The notes beneath the pieces are model-generated. The model searched no databases. It was given only the letters and a program-made list of their open reading frames with translations, and was not told the origin of the DNA. Of a stretch of DNA of 64,000 nucleotides, positions 2 through 64,000 are shown one piece after another. This DNA comes from Amoebophrya sp. A120 (lineage: Eukaryota > Protista > Dinoflagellata), in the NCBI GenBank assembly GCA_905178155.1, contig CAJINV010000006.1, positions 4,754,921 to 4,818,920 on the forward strand, in the 5' to 3' direction. Both the position numbers and the translations under genes were made by a program. The first letter of the stretch is position 1; each line of letters opens with the position of its first letter.

Positions 2-2968
2 CCGACGACCTCGTCCCGGTCAGCCCGTCGGGAAGATGACAACGACCCAGCGCTCCCACGTCTACTGCAACTGCCCTCCTACACTGCGTGTCCGCTGGCG
101 CCCCACCCGCGCGACGTGCCGTTTCCTGAAAAACTACTTTCGTGCTATTCGTATTCGCAGTTTGATGTTCCCCCGCGGCCACACAACTGCGATTTCACCG
201 AGAGGAATTCTTCCCAACTGCATCTGTCGAGACTGTATCAAAAATTTACCGACAAATACCAGCCACAGGACTGCCGTGTGCTGCACGCTCCCGGGGGGCT
301 ACCGCTCTCCATCTTGCGGCCCCGAACTGGCAGTGAGGACGCAACGGAGGGGGGGACGACATCGACACATGAGGAGCACTACGATTCGGGTTGTTACAAC
401 CTGCAGCAGCCCGAAGCCGAGCCACTTCCGAGTGCCGTTTCGTGGGGTGGGGCGACGGAGTCGGGGAGTACCACCGAAGGACCTGGTAGCAAAATCCCCA
501 TCCTGACTCTGGTGTGGGTACATTTTTACTCAGGATACTTGAAGATGTTGTTCCGACAGATGATCCACCCACGGTGTGTCGCTGCTGCATGGCGGTGATA
601 TCGAATGCAAAAGCATCGCACTCGTATAAATGCATTACAAATTGTTCACTTAGCAATACAAATTGAATCTGTAATGCGGATTTGCCTTGATAAAAAGATT
701 TGTAATGCAGAAACGCAATCAGTACGAGTACGATACTTTTGCACAGGATAGGTGAGCAAAGATGTTGATGATGGTGTCCCGGTCTTATGCATTGCAAATA
801 TGTCTGGGTCTGGAAACTTGTAATGCTAAAAGTGAATGAGAGTTCCACTGCAATACGGAGCCAAGCAAGACAAATTTTTTGGGCTCCTATGTGTTGCGTG
901 TTCCGCATGGCATAGCACACTGCGTTTTTGCATGACAGATGAGAGGACCGCTTCGTGCCCATGCATCACAGATTCTTGAGTCATGTCAGACACGCATGAC
1001 AAATGTAGGAATCTTCCAGATCCAAACATATGTGCATTTGATAGCTCTGCTGGTCATGCGGGGTCGTGGTGGCCAACATCTTCCCGGACGTACTCTGCCC
1101 GAGCGGACTCTGTATCAAATGCAAATATGTCTGGGTCTGGAAGGAGTCGTGCTGTTTTTGCATGACACAGAGGCTCTGGCATGCAAGCCCTAGCATCACA
1201 GGTTTGGAAAAGATTCCGCAATTATTAATCCTAATCCGCATGACAAATCCCCCACTTTGGTGGCAGTAAATCTTTTGCTGCCTACGCATGAGAGATTTGT
1301 GTGTTTTGTGAAATGCGCATCACAAGTTCACACCCTTCCAGACATCCAGACATATTTGCAATGCATACTCTGCAAGGCGGACTGAAAGGTCGGGGTGGAC
1401 CCGCGACTGGAGGTTTTCGAGCCAGGTAGTAGCCCGGTTATCGTGAGCAAAAACGTCCCCACACCAGAGTCAAGATGGGACATCTGCTAGACAAATCAAC
1501 CAGCTGTAGTTGCTTCGCATGACAAGTTTTGCCTCGTACTGCAATCCTGTTTGAGGTAGGTCAGCAGCATCACAGATCTGCCGATTCCAGCATCACAAAA
1601 TCCAAAACACGACTAGAAAATGCTTCTCATGGGGCTCCGCATGAGAAACTTTTTTGGCCCGCATGAGAAACTTCTCATGGGCTCCGCATGACCCACCCGC
1701 CCTGCGTGTCAAGCCATCTGCGGCCATGGTACAATGGGGGGGCAAAGTGTGTCGCATTTTGTTTAGCATGACAACTCTGGGGTGGGGACGTTTTTACTCA
1801 GAATACCGGTCTGGTAGGAGCGCACGGTGTAGTAATCCTGTTCATTCGGGCTGATGCTGGTCGAGCCTGCTACTGAGTGGCCGCTTGTCCCCGCCCGCAG
1901 GTTGGAGGGCGGCAGCGCTGGAGCGGCAGCGCGCTGAAACATGCTGGTCCACAGCCGCTTGGCGGTCACGGAGACGCAGCAGTTTACCGGCTCTTCCACA
2001 GAAACGCTGTGCTCTACTTGATGCCTGTCCCTCGCGGCTGCAACGGCAGCGCGTGCAGCCAGGTCCTGGAAAGATGAAGAAAAGTGGTCCTGCTCCTGTG
2101 GGGAGAAGCTTGTGCCGCTGTAGTCTTCGCCGAAGTCGGTTTGCGTAGAAATGCGACGAGTGATCCGACCACTCGGGACGTTTCGTGGGGTGGGGCGACG
2201 GGGTCGGGGAGTACCACCGAAGGACCTGGTAGTGATGCGGCAGCTGCATCTTGTTCGCCCACCAACAGGTACTCGATGGGCAGCCGTGGTTCTTGCGACG
2301 CTGCGTCCGCAGCATCTAGCAGTGCTGGTGGAGCAACGGGGTATATTGCAAATGCTCGCGCGCAGCACAAATCGAAATCCAGCTCTGCGTCTACAGACGG
2401 CAAGCCGCAGTTCCAATTTTTCTTCGGTACCAATCACGACCTGGATGTAGTAGTCCCGTCACCCAGAAAGAAAGGCATCACTCATCGTGGCAGCAGTGGT
2501 CCAGCTGGCATGGAGAAAAGCGACGAAGATGACAACGGGGGCAGCAGCAGCATTGAGATTGACCATGGTGACCGGGGTTGTAGTACCACCGGCGGCGCCG
2601 ACGTCGAGGAACCAACAGTAGCAGCAGCAGATGACCACCCAAAACCGCCACAACCAAAAGCAAAACCGGAACCCCTTCTGCTTCCCCTTTCCGCAAGCGA
2701 AAAGGCGAAAACCCGAAAAGTTCTGCTCAACACCCTCGTCGAGAGGAAACTGCAGCCCACGGACGCCCGGGTCCAGTCGCTCCGGGACGAAATCCATTCT
2801 CGCCGCGGGGCAATTGGGGTTTTATCGTGGGGCTACCCGTTCATCAGCGGTCACAAGAGCGGCTTTTTGAATGCGGCGATGCTTGACCCCCCCGCGGCGG
2901 TGCGACGTGGGTGGGTGGAAAAGCTGGGGGAACGGGCGGAGGAAGTTAAGAAGACCGTGCCTGTTTAG
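2..2968 (+). CDS. Hypothetical protein, 3' part (5' end outside window), interrupted by a 1.7-kb insertion
   Basis: Frame 2 is open from base 2 to 489 (...AVSWGGATESGSTTEGPGS). The same 54 bp recur at 2179-2232 in the same frame and continue to TAG at 2968. Deleting 1743 bp gives one ORF. Confidence 0.55.
487..537. mobile_element. Truncated terminus of a family B introner
   Basis: Matches the reverse complement of the first ~50 bp of 1439-1805; ends TTT-actcagg-ATA. Confidence 0.75.
599..750. mobile_element. Introner, family A
   Basis: TATcgaatgcAAAA...TTTTgcacaggATA; perfect 5-bp repeat GGTGA. Confidence 0.92.
786..1043. mobile_element. Introner, family C
   Basis: TATgcattgcAAAtatgtctgggtctgg TIR; repeats GGTCT/GCTCT. 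Confidence 0.87.
1113..1367. mobile_element. Introner, family C
   Basis: Family C TIRs; perfect repeat CTCTG. Confidence 0.92.
1439..1805. mobile_element. Introner, family B
   Basis: TIR aaaaacgtccccac.ccagagt; perfect repeat CCGGT. Confidence 0.92.
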
Positions 2969-3890: not shown

Positions 3891-6668
3891 ATGTCGATCA
3901 CGACCACCAAGCCGGCCCCGGTTCAGAAACCGGGAACAAAAAGCTGCACAGCTGCAATGAAGAAACCAACCACCTCCCACAAGTTCTCTTCCATGAAGAC
4001 CCCCGCAACCCCGGTTGTTCCTCTATCCACCAAAAAACAACCATCCCCATCCAATTTGTCATGCAAAACATGTATGAAGTCCTGTGTATGAAGTCCTGTG
4101 TCCGCCCGCCCCCCGGGGAGGGGATCCTTGACCTGTGGCGCTGGGTGCGGGTGTCCACTACATGATGATGATGATGCATAAAATGGATGGTGATGATTCT
4201 TTTTTCCTGGATATCCTCCGATCAAAACCTCCAAACTTCACGAGGAGCTCTGGAGCAAGTGGACGCCGGCGGAGAAGAAAGTTCTCGAGAAACTCAACAC
4301 CCCGGAAAAAATCCAGCTCTACCTGGACAACGAGATCAAGTACGGTGGGGAAGACGGCTGCCGGTCCATCCGGCACACCCTGAAAACGAAGGAGGCGCAC
4401 TGTCTCGGTGGGTCCTTGCTGTCCTACTACCTGCTTACCCGGCACGGCTACGAAGCCTTCTGCATCGGTTTGGAAGCCGTGAACGACGACTGTCACGCGA
4501 TTTGCGTCTACACGGTGACGAGCCCGATCTCCGGGAAGAAGTACTACGGAAGTCTGTCGAAGTCGTATCGACGGCAGAAGTAACGTACTAGTAATTTGAT
4601 CAGCACGAGAAATGAACTTTGTAAAAATGCTGGTTAGCGTACACGGATAGATCTGTCGTGCATGACTGCCCTTACTACGAGTACGATTTATACTTTTGCC
4701 ATGCATAAGTGGAACTTCACCCTGATCCGGTCCCGAGATGCAGTCTACTCCTCCCTCCGCGAACTGGTGATGAGTTACTGGGATTTCTACTTCAATACGG
4801 ACGGAGAAAAAACGCTGGTGTGCTACACGAAACCGTTCATATGAACTGCAAAGGTATGGTACTCGTATGAATGCATTACAAATTTCCTTAGCATGAGAAA
4901 TAACGTTTGTCGTGCGCATTTACCTTACGAAAAAAATTTGTAATGCATGACTGCCATTACTACGAGCGCGATACTTTTGCACAGGATAGCTCAAGGCGTT
5001 CACCGATTTCAAGGGGGTGAAGGGGAAGGAGGACAAGTTTTCCTGGATGTTCAACGAGTCCGGAAAGGATGCGAAATATGCATTGCAAATAAAGCGTCGT
5101 GGAGGTGTTGGTGTAACTGCAGAACAGCATGACAAAATTTTGAAAACGCAAAACTCAAAATCGTCACTTTGTCATGCTAGACCTGCCTACACCAAAGGTC
5201 CTTTGTATTGCACAGTCCTGCTCCATCAATCTGTAGTCAGATTACATTAACTAGCAATATGACACATAATGCTCCAATATGACATTTGACCAGGACGACA
5301 TGAAAAACCTGCCAAAACGCGCATTATCATATTGTAATATTGTCATATTGTCATAATGCATATTGCTCGCGACAGCCCGGCGGCTGAAAATTGGTCCCAC
5401 CCGACACGCTGCCGGCCAGGTGTTGCGATTCTAGGACCCTTTAGGCGGGTGCGTATGCATTTGCGGAAAATTTGGCGGGGCGATGAGCCGTACGCACTTC
5501 CTCCGCCCCTCTCGCCCTTGCCCAGGGGGCGTGGCGCTCGTGGCGTGGCCCCTCTCGCCCCTCTTGCAGCGTCGCATTTGTAGCGCGTCCTAGTGCACTG
5601 CAGCTTTTAGCACCAGCATCGCCCCGGCTCTGGGGCGTCATCGCTTATTGTACTCCGAAAGCACAACGCACGAAGCTGATCGCCACACCCACACCACAAA
5701 TAAAGCATTATGACGCAATGGCTGCTGAATTTTGAGCAATTGGATTCGCGTGCGGAATAGAATTCGCATGAGAGCGGGCGACCCGTGGCAAAGTCATTCG
5801 GGTCGCAACGGCCCAGGTCGCGCACATGTTCCTCTGGTTCGGACAATTGTGCCCTTTTCGCCGCCGCTAAAACAAAACGGAGGGACAGGAAGCAGGCCTT
5901 GCAGCGCCAGTAGTGCGTGGCGGGCGCTGCCGGGCCCGCTTTCGGGGGCGGGGGTTCCGACTTTCAACACCTTCTGGTCATTTTGCTCAAAATGCCGCAG
6001 TCATATTGTCATTTTGTCATATTGCCATATTGCATATTGGTAAAAGTGTCGAAATTTTGCTAGTTAATGTAATGTGTGTAGTTCGTCTGCGACGTGTAGT
6101 TTGTCCTGCATAAGCAGTACTGTGAGCAGGTGTTTGACGAAATGGACACGGTTTCGCTCTTTCCGGCGGAGGACCAGGCGGCTAAGAAGAAGATGATGAC
6201 GGCTTATGCAATACAAAAGTACACTCAGAAGGACAAACCGCATGACAAATTTACTTGAGTTTCAGCTACACAAATACGAGAGAAGAAGTTTGTCATGCAG
6301 GGACGCATCTACTGTTGGTGATGATGTTGTTGTACTTTTGAAATTGGATATCGCAATGAAGTCGCTGAAGTACGACACGCGGAAAGAGGGGAAGAAGCAG
6401 GAACACGTTTCGTGTTTTGGAAAATCCGTTTTTACCGCGCCGAAGATCTTGGTGGAGGGAGGGATATGAACTGCAAAACAAGTATCGTACTCGTATAAAT
6501 GCATTACAAATTTCCTCAGCATGATGAGAAATAAAATTTGTAATGCAGATTTGCCTTGGAAACAAGATTTGTAATGCAAGACTTGCATTGGCATTTGTAC
6601 GAGTACGATACTTTTGCACAGGATAAGGGACTCTGGACAGCAACCCGGATGGGCTGTACCAGTGCTAG
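3891..6668 (+). CDS. Transglutaminase-like / vasohibin-like cysteine protease, 307 aa, 7 exons
   Basis: Exons 3891-4023, 4219-4565, 4713-4839, 4994-5076, 6118-6204, 6356-6464, 6631-6668 total 924 nt in frame. Motifs LNTPEKIQ, AHCLGG, DDCHAI, GSLSKSN, VYSSLRELVMSY fit the vasohibin-like Cys-His fold (family recognised from memory). Confidence 0.8.
4024..4213. mobile_element. Introner, singleton family
   Basis: TATccaccaaAAA...TTTttcctggATA; perfect repeat TCCTC; restores VVPPIKT. Confidence 0.88.
4566..4707. mobile_element. Introner, family A-like
   Basis: Repeats AGTCG/AGTGG; restores SKSNFTL. Confidence 0.85.
4840..4988. mobile_element. Introner, family A
   Basis: Repeats GTTCA/GCTCA; restores KPFKAF. 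Confidence 0.88.
5077..6112. mobile_element. Introner enlarged by a nested MITE
   Basis: TATgcattgcAAA...TTTgtcctgcATA; repeat decayed (CGAAA/AGCAG) but the +5 rule restores DAKYCEQVFDEM. Confidence 0.75.
5238..6076. mobile_element. Nested non-autonomous TIR element, 6-bp TSD
   Basis: 17-bp IR attacattaactagcaa (5241-5257 / 6057-6073), termini CAG...GTG, TSD TGTAGT, subterminal GTCATATTG-like repeats. Confidence 0.8.
6205..6350. mobile_element. Introner, decayed
   Basis: TATgcaatacAAAAgtaca...tgtacTTTTgaaattggATA; +5 rule restores MTAMKSLK. Confidence 0.75.
6465..6625. mobile_element. Introner, family A
   Basis: Perfect repeat AGGGA; nearly identical to 21622-21776. Confidence 0.93.
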
Positions 6669-7880: not shown

Positions 7881-10800
7881 ATGGCGAATACGTCAACGGC
7901 AGCCCCCGCGGGTCTCCTCCTGCGCTTGTTCATCTCTTCTCTCGCTTTACTGAAGGCGAGTTTGTTCCTGCTCGAGCTTCGTGCAATCGTGGCAACAGAA
8001 GTTGCCCCCGATGCCGAGAGCAACTACATGCAGCAAGGCGCCTCCAAGCCAGACAGTGACCGCTCCGCGCACGCGGATAACGAAGATGTTAACCCCAGAC
8101 AACTCCACCTTCACCCAACTCTCCGGGCATCAGGAGCTGCATCGGATTCGTCATCATCTAGAAGGGCACGACAGCCAGAGCAGGCAGATCAGGAAATTTC
8201 CGCAGGCCGGGACGACGCTCGAGATCATGCAGCAGGTACTGTACCGTCTACGTCTTCTGGCGCAGCTGCTGGGGCTGCTGCTGCTGCTGCACCACAGTTA
8301 TTGCCATCTTCCGACGAGAATCCAGAGGAGCAAGACTCGTCGGCTACTACTTCATCCGACGAAAACGACCACACACTTGTCCTCAACGCACCCGCAAATA
8401 TTCCGCCCGCACTACCGCCACCACCAACAGTACCGTACATGCTCTTTCCCTCCAGCACCACAACAACTAACGCGACCAATAATTTCCGCAACAAGGAACA
8501 GAAACGCTGGAAAAATTTCCGCTTGCAAGTCGAAAACACTTTCGACACAATCCTATCCGATGCAAAAGTATCGTACTCGTACAGATGCAAGACTTGCATT
8601 ACAAATCTTACTCCTAAGATAAATCAGCACTACAAATCTGATTTCTCATGCTGAGGAAATTTGTAATGCATTATTATACGAGTGCGATACTTTTGCAGTT
8701 CATAAATCCTAGAGAACTACAAATCAAAATTCCCCCAGGCGGGCCATGATTTAAAGAAAAAAATCCTCATTCAGCTGCACCGAAACAAGTACAAGATTCT
8801 GCAAACGGGAAGGTATGCATTGCAAAAGCATCGTACTAGTATCAATTGCAATACAAATTTCCTTAGCATGAGAAATGGAATTTGTCATGCGGATTTGCCC
8901 TAATAAAAAGATTTGTAATGCTGGTGCAAGACTTGCCTTTATACGAGTGCGATACTTTTGCAGAGGATAGGAGGCTGATGCTCGCGACGAGGCGGAAATA
9001 CGAGGAGGAACAGGAGGCGGAAGTGCAGTTGTATATGCAAAAAATGATGCAAGCGTTGCAACAGGGCGCGAGTGAAGTACAGAGCGAGCTAGTGGCCGCG
9101 GGCGTGGACGAACATGATCAAGGTGGTCAAAATCATCACGAAGTTCAAGTGCAACTTCAACTTCCAGTATTGCAATTGAACCTCGGGGCGGGCAAAAGAG
9201 CAGGGAAAACGATGATAAACCCGGTAGAACTAGAGGCCGCGTATTCTGCCGGTTTCGCAAATGCTCTCGTTCCCCCGAGCGGCGGCATAATTGCTGCTAG
9301 AGATGAAGTAGACCAAGCTTCTACTGGAGATCCACAATCAGAACAAGTTGATCCACAGCAGCTACAAAAGCTGATGCTGGATCTGTTGCTCAATACACAA
9401 GTCCAGGCGGCGATGGCGAAGGCGTTGTCTGGTTCTGCCGGCGGTCTGCAAGCAGGGGCTGTTGTTCCAGCTGCATCGTCTTCAAACGGAGATACTAGCG
9501 AAGGTGTCGTGCCAGAAGTGCCTGTCCTGCTACCGCAGCCGCAAATCCAGTTTCAGATGCTGCGACCAGGACATCAGGCCGCTGCGTCTGCACCTTTGCC
9601 GAACCAGCTCCAGTTGGAACAAGCGCAAAATGCCGGACTAGAGCTTTTTCACAATAACGCGCCTGGTATTGCGTTTCTGGTCAACACGGATGCGGAGGGG
9701 AAGCCGCAACTGGAGAAACTTAGCGACAGTGATGCTGCGCTCGCACTTGCCGATGTGGCCGTGGGGGCCGCGAGTGAGGGGACCGTGCTGAACCTTCTTC
9801 CACCTGGTGGTGACATAGCTGGGGCTGAGGCCGCATCTTCAGAGGAAGGACCTGCTGAGCCTACCCAATCTTCTGAAACAAAAACGACCGAAGATGGTCT
9901 TGAAAGCAGAGTCGACGACACAGCTTTCTTCACCCGGCCTTCCTCTCTAGATTCAGTGGCAGAGCCGTCAAAGGCACAGGCTGCTTCTTCCGGAGACGAA
10001 AGAACTCCGACCGCGAGCCAGGAGGCCGCACAACTGCAAAGAAATGATGTTGGAGTTGTCCCTGCGGCCAAAAACATCAAGAAACGCAAAAAAAGGCCGA
10101 CCAAAGCTAGAGCCGACGCCGACAACACTTCCCCCGCAACACCGAAATACCAAGGCAAAACGGAGCTGGACCTGGATGAGAAAATCAAACTTTTTCTGGA
10201 GCACGAAAAGATGAAGGATGATTTGAAAAAATCTGTCATGGCAAAGGTGAAAGCAACGATGCAGAAAAGGGTAGAAAAACTGTCGCTCATGGACAGTGCG
10301 GAAGATTTGCAATTGCTTCTTGATGTTGATACTACTTCGGGGAACCAGCATGTTGACAAATTTGCGGAGCAGCAGCACAAATTTTTTCTGGAGCAGCAAC
10401 GGGAGGAGGCAAAGAGAATGGTGCAGCAAAAGGCAGAAATGGAGAACAAGAAGCAGCATACGCAAGAGAAAGTTCTTTTACCACCACCTCCATGGACCAT
10501 GTGCGCGTCCAACTCCATAGCTAATTTGCGATGCAGCGTAAGACGTGTCGAGAGAAAGAGATCTGTCATGCGTTTTTTTAATTTTCAAGGAGTCGGGGTG
10601 GGGTAGATTTCCTGTCAATAACGCACGAAGAGGTAGAACTGGATGCGATGGATGATGACTCAAATGCTGAGGAGGAGAAGGACCAGAAGGATCAGCTTCA
10701 ACAGGATGAACTACCTCCTGGACGATCCGCGGACGTCATGAAAAAAGAAAGTCAAAGTCTCACCATCGACGCCGTAAAAAGCTTAGTCACCGAAAACGAC

Positions 10801-30770: not shown

Positions 30771-30772
<2 letters not shown>

Positions 30773-32690: not shown

Positions 32691-32931
32691 TATGGGTGTG
32701 TCAGGATCGAAATTCTCAAAGTTGAAAAAAAAATCCGGGGGCCCCTGAAGAGGTGCCGGGATTTTGCGTTTCAACTCTGACACATTCGCCCCCCCTCCGA
32801 GCTAGCCACCACGCTATGCTGGAATGTGTCAGAGTTGAAGGGGGTCCCGGAGGGGGTGCCCTGAAGGCCCCCGCCAAGGACTGCCAGAATTTTTTTTCAA
32901 CTTTGACGATTTCAATCCTGACACTGCCATA
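32691..32931. mobile_element. Family E TIR element, apparently non-genic
   Basis: Same TIR type as 23996-24301; perfect repeat AAGGA; internal perfect 18-bp IR 32770-32787 / 32822-32839. Confidence 0.9.
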
Positions 32932-45060: not shown

Positions 45061-45096
45061 AACCGCTGTATATGCTTCTGTGCTGTAGAGATAAAT

Positions 45097-45268: not shown

Positions 45269-45781
45269 GCTGTAGAGATAAATAAGAATTTCTCTATATG
45301 GCCATGAGGCTTGATTTGCGATCACGCATGGGCGAGTTTGGTGCTACTTTGGTACTACTTGTTGAGCTTTTTAGTCCAGCAAAACGCAACAGCAAATGTG
45401 CGGAACGCAATATGTCCTCGTCGCAGAAGGGAGAACAAGAGCAATTACCGATGAACAATGCGAATTTGTACGATCCTGGTGCCTGCGGCTACTATATCTT
45501 CACGAGCGCGCCAATTGAGAATGATTCAACATGACCAAATCACGATAAAACCTTCATCGTCGTCATCAACGTGGAGGTCAGAATACAACTTCTGACTCAG
45601 TAGACAACTGTTTTTTGATTTTCTGTTGGTCTTTCGTTTTAGTTGCAGTGGTGGAAAAATGGTTGACATGGAGTTTCTGTTTCATCATGTTCTCAGCTTT
45701 TCCTGCTTGTGCTCGTTTGTTTTTCCGAAGAAAGTACTATAAGTAGGTGGTGATCTTTTGTTCTAGAAAGACGCCATTTCT

Positions 45782-48568: not shown

Positions 48569-48738
48569 TATGCGTTGCAACAACATCGCGCTCTTACCTT
48601 AGGAATGGTAGTCATGCATGACAGATCTATCTTTTCTTTGCGCGCCAACCTCCAGCATTACAAATTCCATTTTCCATTTTTCATGCTGGTCAAATTTGGG
48701 ATGCGATTTCAAACGCGGCGATGCTTTTGCAGTCGATA
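48569..48738. mobile_element. Family A element inside a GC-rich, apparently non-coding segment
   Basis: Repeats CCGAG/CCGAA. Confidence 0.8.
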
Positions 48739-52800: not shown

Positions 52801-54545
52801 AAAGTGTCATGCGCGTTTTGCTTTTGTATGACCCATGATGTCTGTGATGCATGCCCCAGCATCACAGATAGATTTTCTGACTGTCTCTTGATGCCTATCC
52901 AGCATGACACATGCTTTCTCCGCACTGCAAAAACGCGGAATACTCTTGCTATTGAGGCAATACAGATTTTTTTGGATTCCAAAACTAGCATTACAGATTC
53001 CATTCTTCCAGACGCAGACACATTTGCATTTGATATGTTCAGGTCGATGGGAAGTTGTTTTTCTATCTGCGGCTGCTGAAGTTTTAAGGCCTGAAGGAAG
53101 GACTTGGTCAGCAGCTGATCCATTTCTGGTGCTGAAACTGGTGCTTCATCACTGTCTTTTTCTCCGCCATAGTCGTTTATGTTCTCGTTCCCAGCTTTAT
53201 TTTCACCCCTCGGCGTGTTGGAGTTGCTGCGTGAAGCACCACTCTTACTCGTGCCGGAAGTTAGCACGACTTGGTCGTTTTGCAACTGCGGAGCAGCTGC
53301 TGTCTTCAATTTGTTTTTCTTGCTACCCGGGGTTGTTCCTGATTGCTTTGCCTGCATTTCCAGCCGCCGTTGCTCCCGCTTGGACAGTTGTGGTTGGTCT
53401 TCAGTGGCACTGTCACTGCAGCTGTCGACCTGTCGATCTCCAGCGCCGCCGTCCGCGTCGTGATCGGTCGGTCCGCCTACGGTAGACGCTTTGTTTTTAC
53501 CGTCTTCATCATCATCGTCTTCTTCAGGCTGGCTTCCTGCGGCTCTTCCCGGAGAAGAGACAACAGGAGATGTTCGTGCGTTCTCCTTACTAGGAGCACT
53601 ATCGACTTTTTGATCGTCCACTCCATCCTCGCCATCAGTCTTTCGTCCCGCCACCTTGCTAAAAATCGCATCTACTCGATCGTTCGAAAATCCGGGCGGG
53701 GAGAGCCAATTCTTCGGAAATTTTTGCCACAAACAGTCGCCAAACCGGTGCAGGATCTTGACTGCAGTCCCCGCCTTCAAGGCATCGAAATCCAAGTGAG
53801 TGTTGTTCCCGGCTGCACCTGCTCCCGGAGAAGAAATGCCTTTCTTTAAAACTTCCAGCTGCCAGACCCCAACTGCAATTGCGAACGGGTTACCCTCGAC
53901 TTTAATCTCCACCAAGCTGCCTTTTTTGACCGCCCCGGCTGACAGGAGTTGTTTCTGGTTTTCAAAAGTTGTCTCCGGGTAGAAACACAGCTGCGGCTTG
54001 TTCACGCACAGGCCTGGGGCGAAGACGTCCGAACCCTTGAGGATAAAATGCGACACATCGTCTAGAATGAATATGGTAGGAAGAAATGCGTCTGCGGGTA
54101 CTTGCAATTGATCAGCGCCCACCGGTGGCGCGCGAAGATTCGCAGTACTGAATTTTCTCCATTCAGCATGCGCTGGCGATTCCACGTGTCTCCACAGTGT
54201 GAAAAGCGTAGGAAAGAAAAAGTTGTTAAAACCCAGTTTCGGTTTGTAATTCAACTCGACATTGACGCCTTTCGCGTCCAGTGGCACGATGTACAAGTAC
54301 TCCTGTTCGTTCTGGTCGTTACATGTTGTCAAAAACCCGAAATTCGAGCTGCCTGGAAGCTGATCCGGTGCCGCAATGTTCTGCGTTTTTAAAATCAGTT
54401 GCGTTTTCTTGTTTTTGATGGAGGCTGTATCAGCCGGGTAGTGCTGCTTCAGGAAATCAGCGATTTGTTTCGTTTCCTTGCCCCCGTAAATCTTCTCCTT
54501 GGTCGCACCATCGATGCTGGCAGCTTTTTTGAAGAGGTTCGACAT
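49883..54545 (-). CDS. EIF2D: Eukaryotic translation initiation factor 2D (ligatin): PUA, SWIB-like and SUI1 domains
   Basis: PUA region ILKGSDVFAPG...NPFAIAVG...VKILHRFGDCLW; MDQLLTKSFLQALK...LPIDLNTFYANFLRPNRP...VDVKKSSGKKL after splicing; SUI1-like KIQVRTEKRMNHNCTLIQGL...EILLQG. Six introners resolved; one intron near 50615-50775 unresolved. Confidence 0.85.
50154..50459. mobile_element. Introner, family C
   Basis: Perfect repeat GGTAA. Confidence 0.92.
50928..51189. mobile_element. Introner, family C
   Basis: Repeats ATCCG/AACTG; frame restored. Confidence 0.82.
51505..51655. mobile_element. Introner, family A
   Basis: Perfect repeat GGCAC. Confidence 0.92.
51721..51976. mobile_element. 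Introner, family C
   Basis: Perfect repeat CGCTT. Confidence 0.92.
52369..52607. mobile_element. Introner, family D
   Basis: Repeats TTCAG/CTCAG. Confidence 0.88.
52770..53035. mobile_element. Introner, family C
   Basis: Perfect repeat TGTTC; restores DLNTFYANFL. Confidence 0.93.
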
Positions 54546-55880
54546 GATTTGATTTTATCGTCGGTGGAGTGCGGGGCAGTTGGAGTTGCAATTGGATTTT
54601 TTTTACATGACAAGATTTAGATTACTTCTATACTGCTGTGTAAAATCTTCAAAATAGCCTTTTGAGTAGATCACAATCAGTTTCAGATTACTATTATACC
54701 GAAAAAAACAATAATTTTCTGAATAAATCATGAAACATACTGGCGATCATAGCCTACGAACTAAAAAGCTACCAGGAGCATCATGCTCGTATATTGAGCA
54801 GTTTGAAACAGAACTCGAAAAATACAAACGCTGTTTTTCATGTGAACAACAAAACAGTCACGAGATGAAACATCTCGATGATGGGAAGGCCCACCCGCTG
54901 CTGGAGGCACCATGACCTTCAGGCGCCCGCCACCAGGACTAGCTGTATATCAAAAAGAGCTCGGATCCTTCGTTCAAAAATAAGGCTGTTTTCGATTTTC
55001 TGCGTTTTTTTTCCGTACAGCAACAACCCTTGCCTTCAATTATTTCCTCAAACTGGAAGAAGTAGAAACATTGTTCATCTGTAAAGTTTCATTTAGTTGA
55101 GTCGAAGTTGTCGGAGCATTTCATTATCGGAGGAGACTTGAAAATCGAGGCTAAGTTCAAACAAGGGAGTAAATAGCATCATACTGAAACTGTAGCTTGT
55201 TCCGTCTTTTTCTATATGCACCTGCAGGCGCGTTCTTGTAGCAAAATCTGTATTCTTTGTTTTCTTCTTTCTATCTTACAGGTTGAATTTCAACATTTGT
55301 TTCTAGTAGTAGTTCTGATGTGTCAAAGGAGCAAAATTTCAAATATTACTCTTTTATTTCAAATTCAAAATGGAAAAAATTCTGCTGTGCACCATTATTG
55401 CTTCAACCACGGCCCCAGTTACAACTTACACCTCGTCAACAGAAGTTCAACATCCTTTTTTTCAGAAGAGAATGCCTCCACCTAGCTGTTGTTCCTCACA
55501 CTGTAGAAAGCATCGTCTGGTGGGTTGAGTTCCGTCCTGTTGTTGGTTTTGCGATTCGCTCGTTCTAGGCCGGGAAGATGAGTGGGCGGGAACTTATTCT
55601 GTGTTATGCAGCAACAAAAAAATACACGTTGATCACAACGATGTCATTCTCATTTTTGAGTTCTCATGCTCGGTATCAAAATGCCTTGACCACTTTCTCA
55701 TTCTTGCTCAAATTATGTGGCCTTGCTGACGTCGATTAGGCTCGCAGGTCGAGCTGCGCAGGGCAGAGAAGTCAGAATCTCCCGATTACAGAAGATCCCC
55801 ATGATGTCTACACGCGAAAAGCTAAAGCAGCAGATGCAGAATCAACACGTTATGTCATAAAAATTATGTCGTTGCAGCTA

Positions 55881-58800
55881 TCAAGTATCTTTTGTTTCAC
55901 CCTCCATACTGTCGTTGTATCGCTCTTCGAGTGAAGCTGCTCTATCAAATGTAAAAGTGTCTGGGTCTGGAAGAATGCAAGTTTGTCATGCTTGTCTCGC
56001 GTGACTCTGGAATCTGTCATGCGTGAGCAGGTGGTACCTATGAGAGCACCCTACTTTCGATCTCCAGGCCTTTCATGCCGTGATGGTCTTGCGGCCCTGT
56101 TCTTGATCTTGTTGGGACCCCGTGCGGCGGAAGGTTGCCCAGCACCACAGACTTTGCGCCCTCGCTATTTAGTAAGCTTTTCTACATATTATGTCGTCGC
56201 ACTTCGTACGCGGAACTTCGTATGCAAGTGGTCACATGATGACGCGTTTTTTGTTGGTCGTCGACTGTACTCTTTTTTCGTTGACGCTAGCAAGATGTAA
56301 GAACTCGCCCTCACGTCTGACTTGCAACATTTTTTTAGTATTTTTACTCGTCGAAATTCGTAAAATAAAACTTCGTATGCAGCTGATACATGATGATAAG
56401 TTTGCTGCCTTATGCTGTGCTCCTTTTCTTTGGCGCTAGCAAGGCAATAAGATTTCAATCTCATGTCTGATCGGTAAGATGCTCTTCATCTTTTAAGTAT
56501 TTTTAAGTGCGACAACATGATATTTGTAAGCTTATCGGCCGTCGTGCCACCGGGACGTCCTGCCCGTAGACCACCAATGTCATGCGTGAGCAGGAGAGTA
56601 GCCTCTCACCTGTCATGCAACAACGCAGTTTGTCATGCGGGAAGCGAAACACATAGGAGCTCAGAAACTTGTCATGCGTGGCTGCGTAACGCAGTGCGCT
56701 TACCATGCACAAACTAGCATCACAAGTTTCCAGACCCAGACATTTTTGCATTTCATATGCTCCCTCCCAGAACCATTCGGTCTTCAATTCGCCGTGTTCG
56801 TAAAACGCGAAGCAGATGCGGTACACTTCCCGTACGGTTATCCTGTGTCACAACATCCCCGGCCCATAGATAGTAGTCACGAGTATAAGTTTTGGTCGTC
56901 GAGCATGACACATTTGGGCTTGCGGTCTGGGGCCGTCGAATCAAAATCGACGTGTGCTTTATCCTGATTCGGGTTCCAGCATGACAAACTCTCAAATATT
57001 GATAGTCGAAAGTCAAATTCAGAACGTTCCTCATGGGGCTGGGCATCAGAAGCATTTTATCCTTGCGGATTTGCATGGCAAAACTGGGCTGGGGCAGTTT
57101 TCACACAGGATACCGTTGCACTCGGCCTCCCCCGGCGGTGTGAAGATGTACTCGGTGTACGCAAACCCTTCTGGAGCACCCCGTCGCCAGGTCCCGAAAA
57201 ACTGGTACCACAGGCCTTCCTCGTCCGGGAGCCAGACATAACTCCCCCACCCGTTCCGAGTCTATGAGAGACAAAAACCGCACAGCTGCCATTGATTTGA
57301 AACTGCAAACAAAAATCCCTTGTTTTCGCTTCATTCTTCGGAAAGCATGCAGCATGACCGTAAAAGTATCTTCACAAGGCTGAGAATGCAAGACTTCGTG
57401 CTTGGAGGAGTATAAGTCTGCATTGCGTTTTTGATTGTGCGGGAAGTGCTGTCAGCACACAACTACCTATTTTTGTAATGCACAAGAATAAATGGCGACC
57501 CAGTTTTGTGTACCATATCACCCCATCTTTGAACTCCCCTTGGAAGTAGTCACCCCTTTCGTCCGTAGAGCTTTATGATTGCAAAAACATCTTTTCAAGA
57601 ACGCATAGCGCATAGCACATTCTGAATAGATCACTGGCGTTGCTCGTCTCCTCGTCTAGATATCAACTACATTACCGTGGTGGAAGCCGAAGGACGAAAG
57701 CAAAAGTAGTCGTAATTGCGTATTTATGCTCAGTCATATGGTCATGCGTAGTGGGCAGCCTTCTGACGTCGTTTTGCAATTTCATAAAGTGCCGTAACCA
57801 TGTGGAATCGGTTTCTCCAAATCGTCAAACAGATTTTTCTTGGCCGACCCCTGTATTAGTATTTGTGTGTGTTGATTCAGGTTATTTAATATTTTTATGT
57901 TTTTTTATTTTCGCATGACAAAGACAATCATCATCATGATCCTGGACCACGGGAAGATAAAATCAAAAGCATTCGTACAGTGTAGTGATAGCCCTCAACA
58001 GGGTCGTAAAAAGACGCCGAGATATGGCCTGGCCAGGTGGAACAGCATCTTCAGCTGGAGAAGTATTGGATGACCACTTGTGATATTGATGAATACGCCG
58101 TGTGGTCCATCCTAGTTCGCTCAGCATGACAAACATCTATACACTCAGCATGACAATCCATCGGAAGCGAGAACCGCACTGGAATCCGACGTGTCGTTCA
58201 TACGAAGCTGCAGGATGTGGACTTACAACAGCTATACTTAGTGCCAGGTGTAACTTTTGTTATTATTACAAATTTAGGAATAAAAAAAACCGTGTTGCTC
58301 CACCAGTTGCGACTGTTCTATCTGAGCAGGCCATATTGGAACACTGGTTCGCGTTCGTCCACTCCGCTGGCCCTTTGCTCTCCGCCGGAACAAACCGGGT
58401 CCTCGGATTTGGCGCCTGGTCTGTTGGTGCTGCGGCCGGTGGTGTTCGTGATTCGATTTGTCAAAGGAGGAAAGGATTCCGGAGACGGTGGTGCCAAAAT
58501 ATGGTCTATGGCGTTCTCAAACGTTAATACATTCTCAGCTGCTACATGAATTTGTCATGCAAAAACACCTTAAGCCGGTAGATGATCGAGCTGCTTCGCA
58601 TGACAAATTTCGGAAGGGCGAGACAGTGTCAAAATCTGCGCCAAACTTGTAATGCAAAAGGCGCAATCTTGCTTCTTTCACTTTTGCCAGTCATGCATTA
58701 CAAATTCATGTAACCGTTGAGAATGTACTTAACATTTGAGAACTCCATATGGTCACGGTAATAGTTCTGCAGGAGTTGCTGGTCCAATGGCGAAGACGCG

Positions 58801-60435
58801 ATCTCCGGAGGCTCTTCCAGGATCGGTGACGGAAGCGCTCGGAACTGGATTCTCCCCTGCTCCAGCAGGTGGTGGTGCCAAGCGGCAGTCCACTGCTGCG
58901 GCGCGTACAGCACTACAGGTGATGGTGGCTTCTGTTCATGTTCGTGCAGCACTGCGGCAGACGAGGAGAAGGAGGACTCGTCCACCATAACGGGAAGGTA
59001 TCATGCGCAAAAAAAGGATCGCACGCACGGCTGCAGGTTTTCGTTCCACTGACATCACAAAATCTGTATCTATCAATTTTCGTACACAGACACATCAAAT
59101 CGCCCCAAGGCAGGAGAGCGTATGCATACCCGGAGTCAGAACTTCCACGTACTGGGTTTGGTATCCATATCCAAGTTCTTGCAGGAATGAGTGCGATCAT
59201 ACTTGTTTTCATCGTGCATACAGAATCCGCCTGCAGGAAGCGCTCCGAAGCCGACATGCTGTACACCTCCGGGCTGTTGAGCAGGTTGAGGTTCGTTCCT
59301 GTCTCCGGTTCACGTTCTCCATCTACGGGGTCTTCCTGGTCGCCGATTGGATTTAGGTGACTGCTGGTCAATACCACCGGCGTCGTTTCCCCGGGCGCTC
59401 CGCTCCTAAAACGAAAACTCACCTCGCCGAATGCGTTGTCGGAGGACCTACTTCTACTACTCCCGGTTATACTCGCAGCAGAAAATTATGGTTGTGCACA
59501 ACTTTCCCTCCACCTTATATATTTGTCATGCGAAATCCCAAATCCAGCTATTCCTTCTTGGCACTGTTTGCATCACAGATTTCACATCGAGCCCAGACGA
59601 GGTAGGGGCAACACTCGGCGCATCAAGTTGTCATGCACGGGCTCCAGCACGTGCGCTGCTCCTGATGTTTGTGTTCATACAAATCAGAAGGAGGGGGAGT
59701 TGTGCGGTGGCATAAATTCACAGATTCGATTTCCCTGTGCGCATGTGCAGTGGCAGGTGGCGAACAAGACGAAGAGGCGATGACTTTGGTGGGAGACGGA
59801 GGCTGGTGTTGTAGTTGTTTCGATACTGCCCCTGCCGGCGGAAAACTGCAATCGGATGGACATATCACAAGAAAAAGCGTAAACGTTGTACGATTTTCTT
59901 CACTACGGATAGCATTCATGCGTCACAAACTAAGCCGAAGGAAGGTGTATGCTCTGCATGACAAATTGAAATTTGGATACGTTTTCGTTTTGTGAATGTG
60001 ATCCAGTGCTGCGTCACAAATTCATCCTTGTAACGTTTTTCCTTTTTCTTGTGATATGACACGACTTTTCCTCGTCACGCACCAGCTCGCGTTGCAGATG
60101 AAAGGAGGACACAGGTTCTAGACCCTTTTCTTCTGCTCCATCTTGGTCCTCGTCCTGTTTTGTGGATTACAGGCTAATGATATATCAAAGCATGACTGAT
60201 GCCGCCGGTGCGGTTGTCCGCATCATTTCGATTTCCGGCAAATTTGCATGACAAGTTCCTCTTACCCCGCCTGTCTGGTGACAGCTTTTGCTCGTAGTGC
60301 TATATTCACTACATATTGTCAACACAAGTACTATACCGGAACGCTCGACGTAGCAACCCGCCTTGCGCGTTCTTGGGCATCGAGCCGCATCAGCTCGAAA
60401 TAGTCTGCTGCTCTGCTCTTGCGGCGACGCAACAT
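55881..60435 (-). CDS. MORN repeat-containing protein (about 12 exons)
   Basis: Spliced product contains YHYTGS...PHGYGT, GDYFQGEFKDGVRNGWGSYVW and YQFFGTWRRGAPEG (MORN consensus YxGxWxxGxxHGxG). First exon and the intron near 60165-60335 are tentative. Confidence 0.7.
55943..56757. mobile_element. Introner, family C, carrying a 546-bp insert
   Basis: Perfect repeat TGCTC; internal 17-bp duplication 56015-56031 / 56578-56594. Confidence 0.88.
56839..57112. mobile_element. Introner, singleton
   Basis: TATcctgtgt...acacaggATA; repeats ACGGT/CCGTT; frame restored. Confidence 0.78.
57263..57517. mobile_element. Introner, decayed
   Basis: TAT-N7-AAA at both ends; repeat lost; +5 rule restores MORN KDGVRNGWG. 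Confidence 0.75.
57574..57786. mobile_element. Introner, decayed
   Basis: TATgattgcaAAA...TTTTgcaatttcATA; restores HGYGTSTDERG. Confidence 0.75.
57851..57978 (-). other. Canonical GT-AG intron
   Basis: act|GTACGA...CTAATACAG|ggg restores YHYTGSAK; contains the shared decamer at 57913-57922. Confidence 0.72.
58023..58335. mobile_element. Introner, singleton
   Basis: TIR TATGGCCTG / CAGGCCATA; +5 rule restores VFQASFYDP. Confidence 0.7.
58507..58749. mobile_element. Introner, family D
   Basis: Perfect repeat TGGTC. Confidence 0.92.
58999..59220. mobile_element. Introner, decayed
   Basis: TATcatgcgcAAA left end; +5 rule restores DSAVMVDES. Confidence 0.62.
59487..59714. mobile_element. Introner, singleton
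   Basis: IR gcacaact / agttgtgc; several shared decamers; frame restored. Confidence 0.7.
59863..60056. mobile_element. Introner, singleton
   Basis: Perfect 15-bp TIR TATCACAAGAAAAAG; repeats GGACA/TGACA. Confidence 0.88.
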
Positions 60436-61944: not shown

Positions 61945-64000
61945 CTACATGGTCCTTGCGAGCCTCCCCGCGTTCGCGACCTCCCCGACACTGACTCCAG
62001 TTTCGTGCATCGGGTTACGGGCTTGCCTCGTCCTGCGCTCGCCACTACGGGAACCACGTCTCTTGACAGACCTATCACTTGCAAAAAATGTTGTGCGGGT
62101 AAGGGGTCGTGCGCTCTCAACAATGCATGACAATCACAATCTGTGCATTTGCATGACAAACAGGTACTGTTTCGTTGTCTCGGCTCGTGGAAGTAAGTAT
62201 GCAATACAAATTCTAAAAAATGCTGAAAAAGTAGCTACGTCGTATGAAATGTCAGTATCACGATCACCTTCACCATGCAACAAGCCATGCATTACAGATG
62301 CACTTTCCAGAGCCGCGACATGTGGTCTGCAGTTGCAGTTGATAGGGCGACCTGTTGGAGTACCACTCTGAGAAGGAGTACAGCGGTTTCTTCTGCAGTT
62401 CCTCCAGCGCTCTGTCAGCCGCGTGATGGCGGTACTTCGGCCCACAGCAGGGTGCTATCAAAGAAAAACCTGGCGCAAACAAGTCCAACACGGCTGTCCT
62501 GCGCCTCCGTGATAGATGTTTTCGGCCTATAATTTCATCACGGGGGTTGATCTACACTCGTTGTGCATCTTTTTTCTAAGTACAAAGGGGGCCGAAGTGC
62601 CTCTGAGTGGGCTTCTCCACCAGCCAGGGCGTGGCATACGCATGAGAGAGTCATAACCAAACTTGTCAAGGACTTGGACTCTGTGCGACCAGTTTTTCTT
62701 TGCATAGTCTCCGGCTTCGTCTGGGTCTCCAACTGCTTCCGCAACATCTCCACCTTTTCCCGCTTCTCCTGTACGCACCGCCGCGCCCAGTTTCGCAGCA
62801 CAATCATCGCGTAATTCTCGCGGATGAACGCCTGGGCCTCCTCCGCAGACATCGCTCCCCGCAGCGCTGCTGCCGCAACCGCCCGCTGGTGCTGTGATTT
62901 GTATTTTTTTTGGGTTGTAGTTTACATTACTCCCACTTCTCATACATCGTTTCAAAGAGCTATCAACGCTTACGCATGTTGACAGCGCGTCCAATTCTCA
63001 GAAGAAACTGTCGCACAACATCTCCTTTCACACATGAAGATGCGTCTGTAGCCAAATAAACTGTACCCTTTTCTTCCTTTGTTCCAGGAGTTTCACTTGC
63101 GACCGCGTCGGTGGAAGTGGCGGCTTCACCGAACCCACCCTCGCGCTCGGTGTTCCCGTCGGCGGCGGAGGCTTCGCAGGCACTTTTGGTTTGCTGGCGA
63201 ACACTGGGCTGCTGCAGATGTTCTCAGTTTCGTGGAGGAACACCGGACTCGTGCACGTGTGCCAGCTTGTCGTTGATCCGGTGCCGTCGCTGTCCACCTC
63301 GGGATCGCTGGGTACCGCCACACGGGTTCTGCCGCCGAAGGCAGAATTTGGCTCCTCGTTCACGTTCGTCACCTCCATCTCGGGATTGTTAATACCGCCA
63401 GATGAAGCGCCATCAGTTTCTTCTGTATTATTTTTCGACGTATCCAGTTCAAATATGTCTGGGTCTGGAAAGTTACAAGACTTGCCAAGCAGATTTCCCA
63501 TGAGCCCTGAGGTCTGGAATGCAGGATCTAGCATGACAGTCTGTGAAATCTCCATCAGGCTTATCCTGGATGACAGACCTCATCTCAATTCGTTGAAACG
63601 TAGACAACTTGTTTTGGTAATCATGCGAGTACAGATTTTCAAGAAGTAATACACGATCTAGGCTTGTTACGTGCCAAATCATACACTTCCAGACTCAGAC
63701 ATATTTGCAATGCATAGGGGGTTGCTGTTGCTCCGCCACGTGTTCTGCTTTCATCGCCACCAGCGGGCTCTTCATCTTTCGCCCAGGCCAACTCCGCGGG
63801 TGGGTTTGCGCTGTAGTTGCTACCACTAGCCGGCTCTTCTTTTGTCGAGGCCAACTCCGCGGGGGGATTTGTGCTGTTGCTGCCACCAGCCGTTTATGCA
63901 TTGCAAAAGCATCGTATTCGTACTAGTATATTATAAATTGCATGACAAATTTGCTCAGCATGAGAAATTAAATTTGTCATGCTGTTTTACCTTGGAAAGG
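61945..64000 (-). CDS. Hypothetical low-complexity protein, 3' part (continues beyond window)
   Basis: The +5 rule joins GATATP|KNNTEE across 63441-63716 and NRSP|VKRRG across 62073-62344; introns between 62500 and 63060 unresolved. Confidence 0.5.
62073..62344. mobile_element. Introner, decayed
   Basis: TATcacttgcAAAA...ttgcagttgATA. Confidence 0.65.
63441..63716. mobile_element. Introner, family C
   Basis: Family C TIRs; repeat decayed (CGACG/GGGGG); frame restored. Confidence 0.82.
63895..64000. mobile_element. Introner, family A, truncated by the window edge
   Basis: TATgcattgcAAAAgcatcgta and family A interior. Confidence 0.85.

What the first reader, a model, noticed from the sequence alone, without database searches (positions are those of the whole stretch)
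599..64000. About 50 TAT...ATA TIR elements act as introns under an element-plus-5-bp excision rule
Seen: 21 copies have a perfect 5-bp flanking repeat, 13 have one mismatch, and the repeats have arbitrary sequence. Deleting the element plus one repeat restores conserved motifs in GH47, eIF2D, Kv/C2, MORN and the vasohibin-like protein. Junctions are generally not GT-AG. Established (from memory, unverified): IR/DR-flanked non-canonical introners were reported in the Amoebophrya A25/A120 genomes with an unknown splicing mechanism, so their existence is probably not new. Inference: these are MITE-like DNA transposons with a uniform 5-bp TSD, removed by a machinery that measures a fixed total offset from the TIRs instead of reading splice dinucleotides.
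Basis: partly seen in the sequence, partly recalled or inferred. Interest (0 to 1): 0.8.

Follow-up and report, generated by a model that had tools for sequence, protein, structure and literature searches.

The report
Amoebophrya introners spliced at 1+4 register
About 54 small hairpin-ended, transposon-like elements interrupt genes of the marine parasite Amoebophrya A120 (an intron class already published) and are missing to the base from likely messenger-RNA contigs, always cut one base before and four bases after the element, which likely reflects a spliceosome that no longer needs GT-AG and would make their unknown removal testable.

Summary
I catalogue 54 TAT…ATA elements: 21 with a perfect and 13 with a one-mismatch 5-bp flanking repeat. 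The window is Amoebophrya A120, and these are its published introner elements (Farhat 2021). In RNA-like contigs, 14 of the 15 joints shown skip exactly element+5; the 15th is a canonical GT-AG intron. New against the papers read: the cut is not variable. Of 22 junctions placed from RNA, all 22 allow one register: 1 nt before TAT and 4 nt after ATA, in transcript direction. Six are pinned to it exactly, and only it reproduces the deposited eIF2D-like protein. Decayed repeats and both element orientations still splice, which argues against reverse-transcription artefact and DNA excision. The first and last bases are free; U+2 is invariant (47/47; 172/172 in a related assembly). The machinery is inferred: a relaxed spliceosome (0.55) or a euglenid-like hairpin enzyme (0.3). 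No transposase was found. RNA evidence is contigs from one sample. This scan already found the same register on other pieces of this genome.

The parts
599..750 (-). element, repeat 5/5, ~150-nt family
   Evidence: strand from ORF only
786..1043 (-). element, repeat 4/5
   Evidence: strand from ORF only
1113..1367 (-). element, repeat 5/5
   Evidence: strand from ORF only
1439..1805 (-). element, repeat 5/5
   Evidence: strand from ORF only
4024..4213 (+). element, repeat 5/5; RNA skip 195 = +5
4566..4707 (+). element, repeat 4/5; RNA allows 1+4 or 0+5 (far side inferred)
4840..4988 (+). element, repeat 4/5
   Evidence: RNA intron sum 1659
5077..6112 (+). long element (1036 nt) with an apparent nested insertion, repeat 2/5
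   Evidence: RNA intron sum
6205..6350 (+). element, repeat 2/5
   Evidence: RNA intron sum
6465..6625 (+). element, repeat 5/5
8554..8704 (+). element, repeat 5/5
8814..8969 (+). element, repeat 4/5; the only GT-AG copy at 1+4
11438..12268 (+). long element (831 nt) with an apparent nested insertion, repeat 4/5, GH47 gene
15848..15955 (+). element, repeat 4/5, GH47 gene; intact in a DNA contig
16967..17116 (+). element, repeat 5/5, in GH47 domain
17193..17469 (+). element, repeat 5/5, in GH47 domain
18608..18769 (+). element, repeat 5/5, GH47 gene
18851..18995 (+). element, repeat 5/5, GH47 gene
21622..21776 (+). element, repeat 5/5; intron 160 = +5 in deposited Kv/C2 protein
22034..22209 (+). 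canonical GT-AG intron (GTA start, A at -7), for comparison
23255..23477 (+). canonical GT-AG intron (GTA start, A at -7), for comparison
23996..24301 (+). element, TATGG family, repeat 5/5; intron 311 = +5
32691..32931 (.). element, TATGG family, repeat 5/5, in apparently non-genic DNA
34295..34605 (.). element, pairing uncertain (alternative left end 33677), repeat 1/5
34744..34998 (.). element, repeat 3/5
35618..35831 (.). element, repeat 2/5
40990..41170 (-). element, repeat 4/5, one end CAT
   Evidence: strand from ORF and candidate GT-AG introns
41396..41680 (-). element, repeat 4/5; RNA skip +5
   Evidence: table 5c
41702..41972 (-). element, repeat 1/5; cut pinned at 1+4; leaves a 16-nt exon before 41396
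   Evidence: table 5c
42691..42959 (-). element, repeat 2/5; cut pinned at 1+4
   Evidence: table 7
46072..46286 (-). element, repeat 5/5; RNA skip 220
46346..46559 (-). element, repeat 3/5; pinned at 1+4 (TT..AG); 5' end TAC
46653..46970 (-). element, repeat 5/5; RNA skip 323; 3' end ACA
47034..47284 (-). element, TATGG family, repeat 4/5; RNA skip 256
47337..47489 (-). element, repeat 4/5; RNA skip 158
48569..48738 (-). element, repeat 4/5; one side seen in RNA; strand uncertain
50154..50459 (-). element, repeat 5/5, eIF2D-like gene
50594..50828 (-). element, repeat 1/5, eIF2D-like gene
50928..51189 (-). element, repeat 3/5; RNA allows 0+5 or 1+4
51505..51655 (-). element, repeat 5/5; ~150-nt family in opposite orientation, spliced
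51721..51976 (-). element, repeat 5/5
52369..52607 (-). element, TATGG family, repeat 4/5; RNA excludes 0+5
52770..53035 (-). element, repeat 5/5
55605..55908 (-). element, repeat 0/5; pinned at 1+4 (GT..AC)
55943..56757 (-). long element (815 nt) with an apparent nested insertion, repeat 5/5; RNA skip 820; interior also present in RNA-like contigs
56839..57112 (-). element, repeat 3/5; RNA skip 279
57263..57517 (-). element, repeat 1/5; pinned at 1+4 (AT..CT); terminal stem not predicted
57574..57786 (-). element, repeat 2/5; RNA skip 218
57850..57977 (-). canonical GT-AG intron (GTA start, A at -7), removed in the same contigs
58023..58335 (-). element, repeat 2/5; pinned at 1+4 (AT..TC)
58507..58749 (-). 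element, TATGG family, repeat 5/5; RNA skip 248
58999..59220 (-). element, repeat 1/5; RNA allows 1+4 or 2+3
59487..59714 (-). element, repeat 2/5; RNA skip 233
59863..60056 (-). element, repeat 4/5
62073..62344 (.). element, repeat 2/5
62456..62706 (.). element, repeat 2/5
63441..63716 (.). element, repeat 2/5
63895..64000 (.). left end of an element running off the window (not counted among the 54)

Best explanation
These are Amoebophrya A120 introner elements, likely non-autonomous DNA transposons with a 5-bp target duplication, that are missing from likely mRNA contigs with the cut one base before TAT and four bases after ATA, and are likely removed by a spliceosome that no longer needs GT-AG. 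SHOWN in sequence and contigs: the ends, the 5-bp repeat, the element+5 skip and the 1+4 register. The intron is the last base of the upstream repeat, the element, and the first four bases of the downstream repeat, so the message keeps exactly one repeat's worth and the original codons. INFERRED: a trans-acting DDE transposase made the insertions (none found). INFERRED: the element's TAT supplies U+2/A+3 of a Giardia-like N-TATG 5' site; the first A of the terminal ATA (position -7) would be a branch point, and the 3' cut would be measured from it instead of found by AG. The long inverted repeat would bring the two ends together in place of the undetected U1 snRNA. Confidence in the register alone is about 0.93; the figure below is for the whole statement, machinery included.
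For: Register: 22 of 22 RNA-placed junctions allow 1+4 (4 with one side inferred; next best register 13 of 22); 6 are pinned exactly and 15 exclude the mirror 4+1 (1.3e-4 if cuts were uniform over six places). I wrote 1+4 down before the second lay. Only 1+4 gives 0 differences over the 970 aa of deposited P0001. The spliced plus-strand gene is 1619 nt and, with 8 untemplated A, equals the 1627-nt contig. All 9 predominant A120 site pairs in Farhat Table S4 have T second, as do all 9 of A25. Bases: +2 T 47/47, +3 A 47/47, -7 A 47/47, with +1, -1 and -2 free. In a related assembly +2 T 172/172, +3 A 170/172, -7 A 170/172. All 3 verified canonical introns start GTA and have A at -7. Deviant ends fall on the predicted free side in 14 of 18 cases (p=0.015: window 3 of 3, related loci 11 of 15, 2 dropped for unclear strand). 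A120 keeps most spliceosomal proteins and U2, U4, U5 and U6 (Farhat section 10). Giardia has [G|C]TATGT and a fused branch/3' motif. One pinned intron has no predicted terminal stem (z=0.33).
Against: No lariat or branch evidence exists here. U1 snRNA was not detected in A120. G+1 and the final AG matter in standard spliceosome chemistry (recalled) and are absent, with no drift towards them: GT-AG in 3 of 172 against 2.7 expected. TAT/ATA conservation is nearly symmetric, so transposase end requirements explain it too; at the stricter strand margin the asymmetry is 8 vs 4 (p=0.19). Four related-locus copies deviate at +3 or -7, and whether they splice is unknown. One unverified canonical candidate near 42.0-42.5 kb lacks A-7 (read by eye). 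A predicted terminal stem (mean pair probability 0.50-0.55 for TAT:ATA, 0.72-0.76 for +10..+14) would hide U+2 and A-7. The RNA is contigs from one sample, its RNA status is a guess, 16 of 31 joints were not shown, and the deposited proteins may rest on the same data. My first register prediction (4+1) was wrong.
Confidence: 0.55

Rival explanations
1. Same 1+4 register, but removal by a non-spliceosomal endonuclease and ligase that recognise the terminal hairpin and cut at fixed distances from it, as proposed for euglenid nonconventional introns.
For: Boundary dinucleotides are free. +2..+4 are complementary to -5..-7 in 46 of 47, and +9..+15 stay largely complementary. Both orientations splice (family split 8 same, 6 opposite; 47337 and 51505 are both removed). 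Euglenid introns pair +4..+6 with -8..-6 and leave as circles. U1 is undetected.
Against: Identity, not only pairing, is kept: no compensatory change at TAT/ATA in 47 window or 219 related copies. Some spliced copies have little predicted terminal pairing (57263, 46653, 55605). Verified canonical introns share U+2, A+3 and A-7 (3 of 3). Deviant-end asymmetry is 14 of 18.
Confidence: 0.3
2. The cut position relative to the hairpin is variable, as the legend of Farhat Fig. 3 states, and 1+4 is only one common outcome.
For: Published wording (Fig. S23 legend). Automated calls give repeats of 2-5 bp and mixed splice-site origin for A120 families (19 of 58 rows seen). 16 joints were hidden.
Against: 22 of 22 junctions allow 1+4 and 6 of 6 pinned ones are 1+4. 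Perfect repeats leave six equivalent alignments, which would itself look like variability. In 267 end pairs from a related assembly the repeat is 5 bp (175 perfect, 44 one-mismatch; identity 0.84 against 0.23-0.34).
Confidence: 0.07
3. The elements are excised from DNA in a somatic or stage-specific genome, like ciliate IESs, so transcripts simply lack them.
For: Transposon-like ends; arbitrary boundary bases. Contigs drop rare alleles, and the DNA run may be the source of the assembly.
Against: DNA contigs cross elements intact (4149-4888 over 4566-4707; 12137-16992 over 15848-15955). The retained half of the repeat follows transcript direction: 15 of 15 informative junctions exclude 4+1 although element orientation is mixed. 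Element interior is present in RNA-like contigs.
Confidence: 0.04
4. The skips are reverse-transcriptase template switches across hairpins between direct repeats.
For: Hairpin plus direct repeat is the classic setting for this artefact (recalled); contigs only, one sample.
Against: Six junctions have no shared base at the cut and repeats of 0-3 of 5, yet sit at the same register. The skips restore long reading frames and deposited proteins.
Confidence: 0.02

Closest known systems
Introner elements of Amoebophrya sp. A120 (Farhat et al. 2021, PMC7789003; read: abstract, passages, sections 10, 11, 12, 16, supplement parts 2-3 as text; figures not seen)
   Same: Same organism. Inverted repeats that start TAT, then seven looser bases, then AAA; direct repeats; non-canonical junctions; RNA support; a 5-bp repeat example in the Fig. 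S19 legend.
   Different: [quoted passage not shown] Here the repeat is uniformly 5 bp and the cut is fixed at 1+4 with invariant U+2.
A120 introner families in Gozashti et al. 2025 (PMC12130899; passages, 19 of 58 A120 rows of one supplementary table; two supplementary files not searched)
   Same: Mostly TIR DNA elements of unknown superfamily, about 150-300 bp, largely non-canonical sites.
   Different: Their automated repeat lengths (2-5) and splice-site origins vary by family; no common register in what I saw.
Euglenid nonconventional introns (Milanowski 2016, PMC4770533, passages; review PMC11282704, section 6)
   Same: End pairing at a fixed offset from the cut (+4..+6 with -8..-6), non-canonical borders, proposed MITE origin, unknown machinery.
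   Different: The offset here is +2..+4 with -7..-5; identity (TAT/ATA) is kept, not only pairing; no Y|R rule at the junctions (searches show at most a weak purine lean at +1).
Fritillaria borealis non-canonical introns (via review PMC11282704 and passages of PMC13326754; Henriet 2019 not read)
   Same: Transposon-derived non-GT-AG introns with TIR and TSD, removed by an adapted U2 spliceosome.
   Different: There AG-AC/AG-AT dominate and U1 is conserved; here the end dinucleotides are free apart from U+2 and U1 is undetected.
Giardia spliceosomal introns (PMC10711314, passages)
   Same: 5' motif [G|C]TATGT and a branch point fused at fixed distance to the 3' site.
   Different: They keep the final AG, are few, and are not transposon-derived.
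IS3EU/GingerRoot and Ginger2 DNA transposons (PMC10045372, passages)
   Same: TA..TA termini (IS3EU/GingerRoot); a 4-5 bp repeat (Ginger2).
   Different: IS3EU/GingerRoot make 6-bp repeats; no transposase was found here, so no superfamily is assigned.

Membership tests
Amoebophrya A120 introner elements | Host is Amoebophrya A120 | tested here: met
   P0001 99% and P0004 100% identical, named A120; exact mapping
Amoebophrya A120 introner elements | Inverted repeat TAT + 7 nt + AAA at the intron ends | tested here: met
   TATGG families keep TAT and A13 but not the full AAA
Amoebophrya A120 introner elements | Direct repeats of 3-5 nt overlapping the exon/intron borders | tested here: met
   5 bp only
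Amoebophrya A120 introner elements | Removed from RNA at non-GT-AG sites | tested here: met
   0 of 29 RNA-supported copies are GT-AG; contigs of one sample
Amoebophrya A120 introner elements | Repeated, in families | tested here: met
   71-94% identity among the best pairs; high summed depth over elements in the DNA run
MITE / non-autonomous TIR DNA transposon | TIRs, fixed-length arbitrary TSD, no coding capacity | tested here: met
   no Pfam hit in the seven ORFs tried over the three long elements
MITE / non-autonomous TIR DNA transposon | Cognate autonomous element with transposase | not testable with these tools
   no genome held; the two long pairings in related loci gave no transposase candidate
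IS3EU/GingerRoot | TA..TA termini | tested here: met
IS3EU/GingerRoot | 6-bp TSD | tested here: not met
   0 of 31 and 0 of 267 perfect at k=6
U2-type spliceosomal intron | GT/GC-AG boundaries | tested here: not met
   1 of 47; 3 of 172
U2-type spliceosomal intron | Branch adenosine and lariat intermediate | not testable with these tools
   A at -7 is conserved (47/47, 170/172, 3/3 canonical) but no lariat data
U2-type spliceosomal intron | Dependence on U2/U5/U6 snRNPs | not testable with these tools
   needs inhibition or depletion; snRNA sequences were figures I could not see
Euglenid-type nonconventional intron | End-pairing structure at a fixed offset | tested here: inconclusive
   fixed offset shown; stem predicted for most but not all copies
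Euglenid-type nonconventional intron | CAG/CTG at +4..+6/-8..-6 and Y|R junctions | tested here: not met
Euglenid-type nonconventional intron | Excised as full-length circles | not testable with these tools
   no back-joint among the 15 rows shown; 16 rows hidden; contigs only

The most novel reading that the evidence does not exclude
A120 has a splicing code in which the transposon end itself is the whole signal: U+2/A+3 at the 5' side and a branch A seven bases from the 3' end, with no U1, no G+1 and no AG. Any insertion, at any sequence and in either orientation, becomes a scarless intron, and the same code may serve its canonical introns.
Probability: 0.4. Interest if true: 0.85.

Novelty: already known. 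Interest (0 to 1): 0.52.

Why it matters
The elements are published, but how they are removed is an open question and the published picture is of variable borders. A single register turns about 30,000 repeated A120 introns (29,850 in Farhat section 11) into a defined substrate. It names the bases to mutate and the branch position to look for, and it fixes gene models wherever repeats mismatch (other registers change residues in the eIF2D-like protein). It also explains why the elements spread through exons: the message is restored whatever the target sequence or orientation. If a spliceosome does this, it tolerates loss of G+1 and AG together, further than the tunicate case as described in the papers read.

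Tried and rejected
First register guess 4+1 (AG made from ATA+G): contradicted and excluded by 15 of 22 junctions. Drift of intronic repeat bases to GT/AG: not seen; only a marginal purine lean at +1 (88/138 vs 71/138, p=0.051). A first candidate element 5646-6350 was dropped once RNA sums showed 5077-6112 and 6205-6350; still used it. My guessed 3' end for the second Kv canonical intron was wrong. No RNA holder on record was listed; raw RNA run X8 laid 0 reads (no test). The joint table was filled by repeat-end joints of the DNA run (15 of 371 shown) and gave nothing on empty sites. Pfam on 144 further ORFs: 0 hits. Rfam: one chance match, no snRNA. Relatives of the 'vasohibin-like' exon: none credible; the Atlas gave no answer. 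The 4.2-kb pairing in L042 is two short elements around an exon. Roy et al. 2023 was not held. Searches for a published register (passages of PMC9860276, PMC12005148, PMC11453091) found none; theses, subscription papers and the figures of Farhat 2021 (Figs 3, S19-S25) were not seen and could contain it.

Full report
Observation. The window holds many short elements whose two ends are inverted copies of TAT-N4-TGC-AAA or of related termini that keep TAT and an A at position 13. Pairing strong ends without looking at the flanks gave 31 pairs with flank identity 0.78 at five bases and 0.19-0.31 at every other length from 2 to 9. A family-agnostic scan gave 40 pairs, 16 with a perfect 5-mer, against 0.7 and 0 per shuffle. 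The final list has 54 elements of 108-1036 nt: 21 with a perfect repeat, 13 with one mismatch and 20 more decayed. A few ends are unpaired and one pairing (34295) is doubtful.

Organism and prior art. Two window genes match proteins named Amoebophrya sp. A120 at 99% and 100%. Farhat et al. 2021 describe A120 introner elements with inverted repeats starting TAT, seven looser bases and AAA, direct repeats of 3-5 nt, more than 60% non-canonical introns, no detectable U1 snRNA and an unknown mechanism. The class is therefore known. Their Fig. 3 legend calls the splice sites variable relative to the hairpin; I saw legends and tables, not the figures.

Removal from RNA. Runs X1-X4 are contigs from one sample whose RNA status is a guess. 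They behave as mRNA: one contig ends in eight untemplated A, and a canonical intron is removed in them. Of 31 joints in 40900-60899, 15 were shown: 14 skip a TAT..ATA element plus exactly five bases, and one is a 128-nt GT-AG intron. In the eIF2D-like gene, seven elements plus five bases each sum to 1750 nt, equal to the gap implied by two contigs. In the plus-strand gene at 3785-7257, five elements sum to 1659 nt, also exact, and the spliced length plus tail equals the 1627-nt contig. The deposited Kv/C2 protein needs introns of 160 and 311 nt at its two elements, again +5. DNA contigs cross elements intact.

The register. Mismatched repeats show which copy survives. My first guess, 4 upstream + 1 downstream, was contradicted by the 4566 junction. 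I then predicted 1+4 before the second lay. Of 22 junctions placed from RNA (4 with one side inferred), all allow 1+4, the next best register fits 13, six are pinned exactly at 1+4, and 15 exclude 4+1. Only 1+4 reproduces P0001 without a difference; the other five registers change one or two residues. That model may rest on the same transcripts. All nine predominant A120 site pairs in Farhat Table S4 have T second, as 1+4 predicts. One family lies 8 times in one orientation and 6 in the other relative to the transcript, and both are removed, so the register follows the transcript. That argues against DNA excision. Pinned junctions with repeats of 0-3 of 5 and no shared base at the cut argue against template switching and show that the repeat is not needed for removal.

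What is conserved. In 47 stranded elements: +2 T, +3 A and -7 A in all; +4, -6 and -5 in 46; +14 A in 46 and -17 T in 44; +1, -2 and -1 free; GT-AG once. Copies known only from sequence were picked by their ends, but the 14 joint-defined ones were not, and show the same. A motif scan of metagenome contigs returned loci of one related assembly that does not overlap the window's genes. Scoring ends without their first three bases gave 267 pairs, 175 with a perfect and 44 with a one-mismatch 5-mer; the loci themselves were chosen by a TAT-containing pattern. A codon model called strand correctly for 37 of 37 window elements in leave-gene-out tests. For 172 of 219 copies with a clear strand: +2 T 172, +3 A 170, -7 A 170, GT-AG 3 against 2.7 expected. 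Deviant ends lay on the side predicted to be free in 11 of 15 related copies (2 dropped for unclear strand; p=0.06) and 3 of 3 window copies (together p=0.015); at the stricter margin the split is 8 to 4 (p=0.19). Four copies break the rule and their splicing is unknown.

Mechanism. The three verified canonical introns start GTA and have A at -7; of two unverified candidates read by eye, one lacks it. Giardia introns begin [G|C]TATGT and fuse the branch point to the 3' site. A120 keeps U2, U4, U5, U6 and most spliceosomal proteins. I therefore favour a relaxed spliceosome that reads U+2/A+3, branches at A-7 and measures the 3' cut, with the hairpin standing in for U1; all of this is inferred (0.55). 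The main rival is a hairpin-guided endonuclease and ligase as proposed for euglenids, whose introns also pair their ends at a fixed offset and leave as circles (0.3). Folding does not decide. Mean pair probability is 0.50-0.55 for TAT:ATA and 0.72-0.76 for +10..+14 over 44 introns at 20 C. One pinned intron folds into a full terminal stem (z=-2.66) and another into none (z=0.33). Symmetric end conservation is also what a transposase would impose.

Transposon side. TIRs, a fixed arbitrary 5-bp repeat, families at 71-94% identity among the best pairs and no coding hits fit non-autonomous DNA transposons. TA..TA ends recall IS3EU/GingerRoot, but those make 6-bp repeats, so no superfamily is assigned. 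No transposase was found, and no genome was available to search.

Novelty and verdict. The elements are already known. A fixed 1+4 register was not in the papers I read or listed, though figures, two supplementary files, 39 table rows and Roy 2023 were unseen. This scan has noted it on other pieces of the same genome (AI notes, not support). Interest 0.52: a real and published system, with a rule that makes its open mechanism testable.

Noticed in passing
elements throughout the window: Internal motif GCAT[T/G/C]ACA occurs 123 times in 12.4 kb of 47 catalogued elements against 25 times in the other 51.6 kb, on both strands; several outside hits lie in uncatalogued elements or canonical introns. 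Possibly a transposase or splicing-factor site.
   Followed up: partly
element position 13 at both ends: An A at position 13 is kept across otherwise unrelated families (+14 A 46/47, -17 T 44/47), ten bases from the third base of TAT.
   Followed up: partly
window 41682-41697, 55910-55937, 57978-58018: Very short exons (16, 28 and 41 nt) between neighbouring introns are joined precisely in RNA-like contigs.
   Followed up: no
window 55969-56744: The interior of the 815-nt element is itself a contig in two RNA-like runs (depth 19.6 beside 58.6 for the joint in X2): retained intron, excised intron or DNA.
   Followed up: no
window 5077-6112, 11438-12268, 55943-56757: The three long elements appear to carry nested inverted-repeat insertions of other kinds (by eye).
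   Followed up: no
window 23255-23477: This canonical intron starts G-TAT and its ends are partly complementary, as if it were an old element that kept or gained GT-AG (by eye).
   Followed up: no
window 26000-33000 and 37700-40300: Long stretches without Pfam or Rfam hits, with alternating GC-rich and AT-rich blocks and two similar segments near 38700-38900 and 40080-40290; possibly decayed larger mobile elements.
   Followed up: partly
window 430-540 and 1770-2240: Local duplication that includes a lone element right end at 537; paralogous contigs show differences at 1083-1103 and 1415-1430.
   Followed up: no
window 10540-10610: Two long plus-strand ORFs (7758-10603 and 10582-20228) overlap in different frames with no element between them; a small intron, two genes or an assembly error.
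   Followed up: no
Farhat 2021 Table S4: All nine predominant A25 site pairs start TT, so A25 elements with TTA ends may also keep U at +2 under their own register.
   Followed up: no
L018:134-439, L027:5330-5639: The related assembly carries the 23996 family at 89-91% identity.
   Followed up: no
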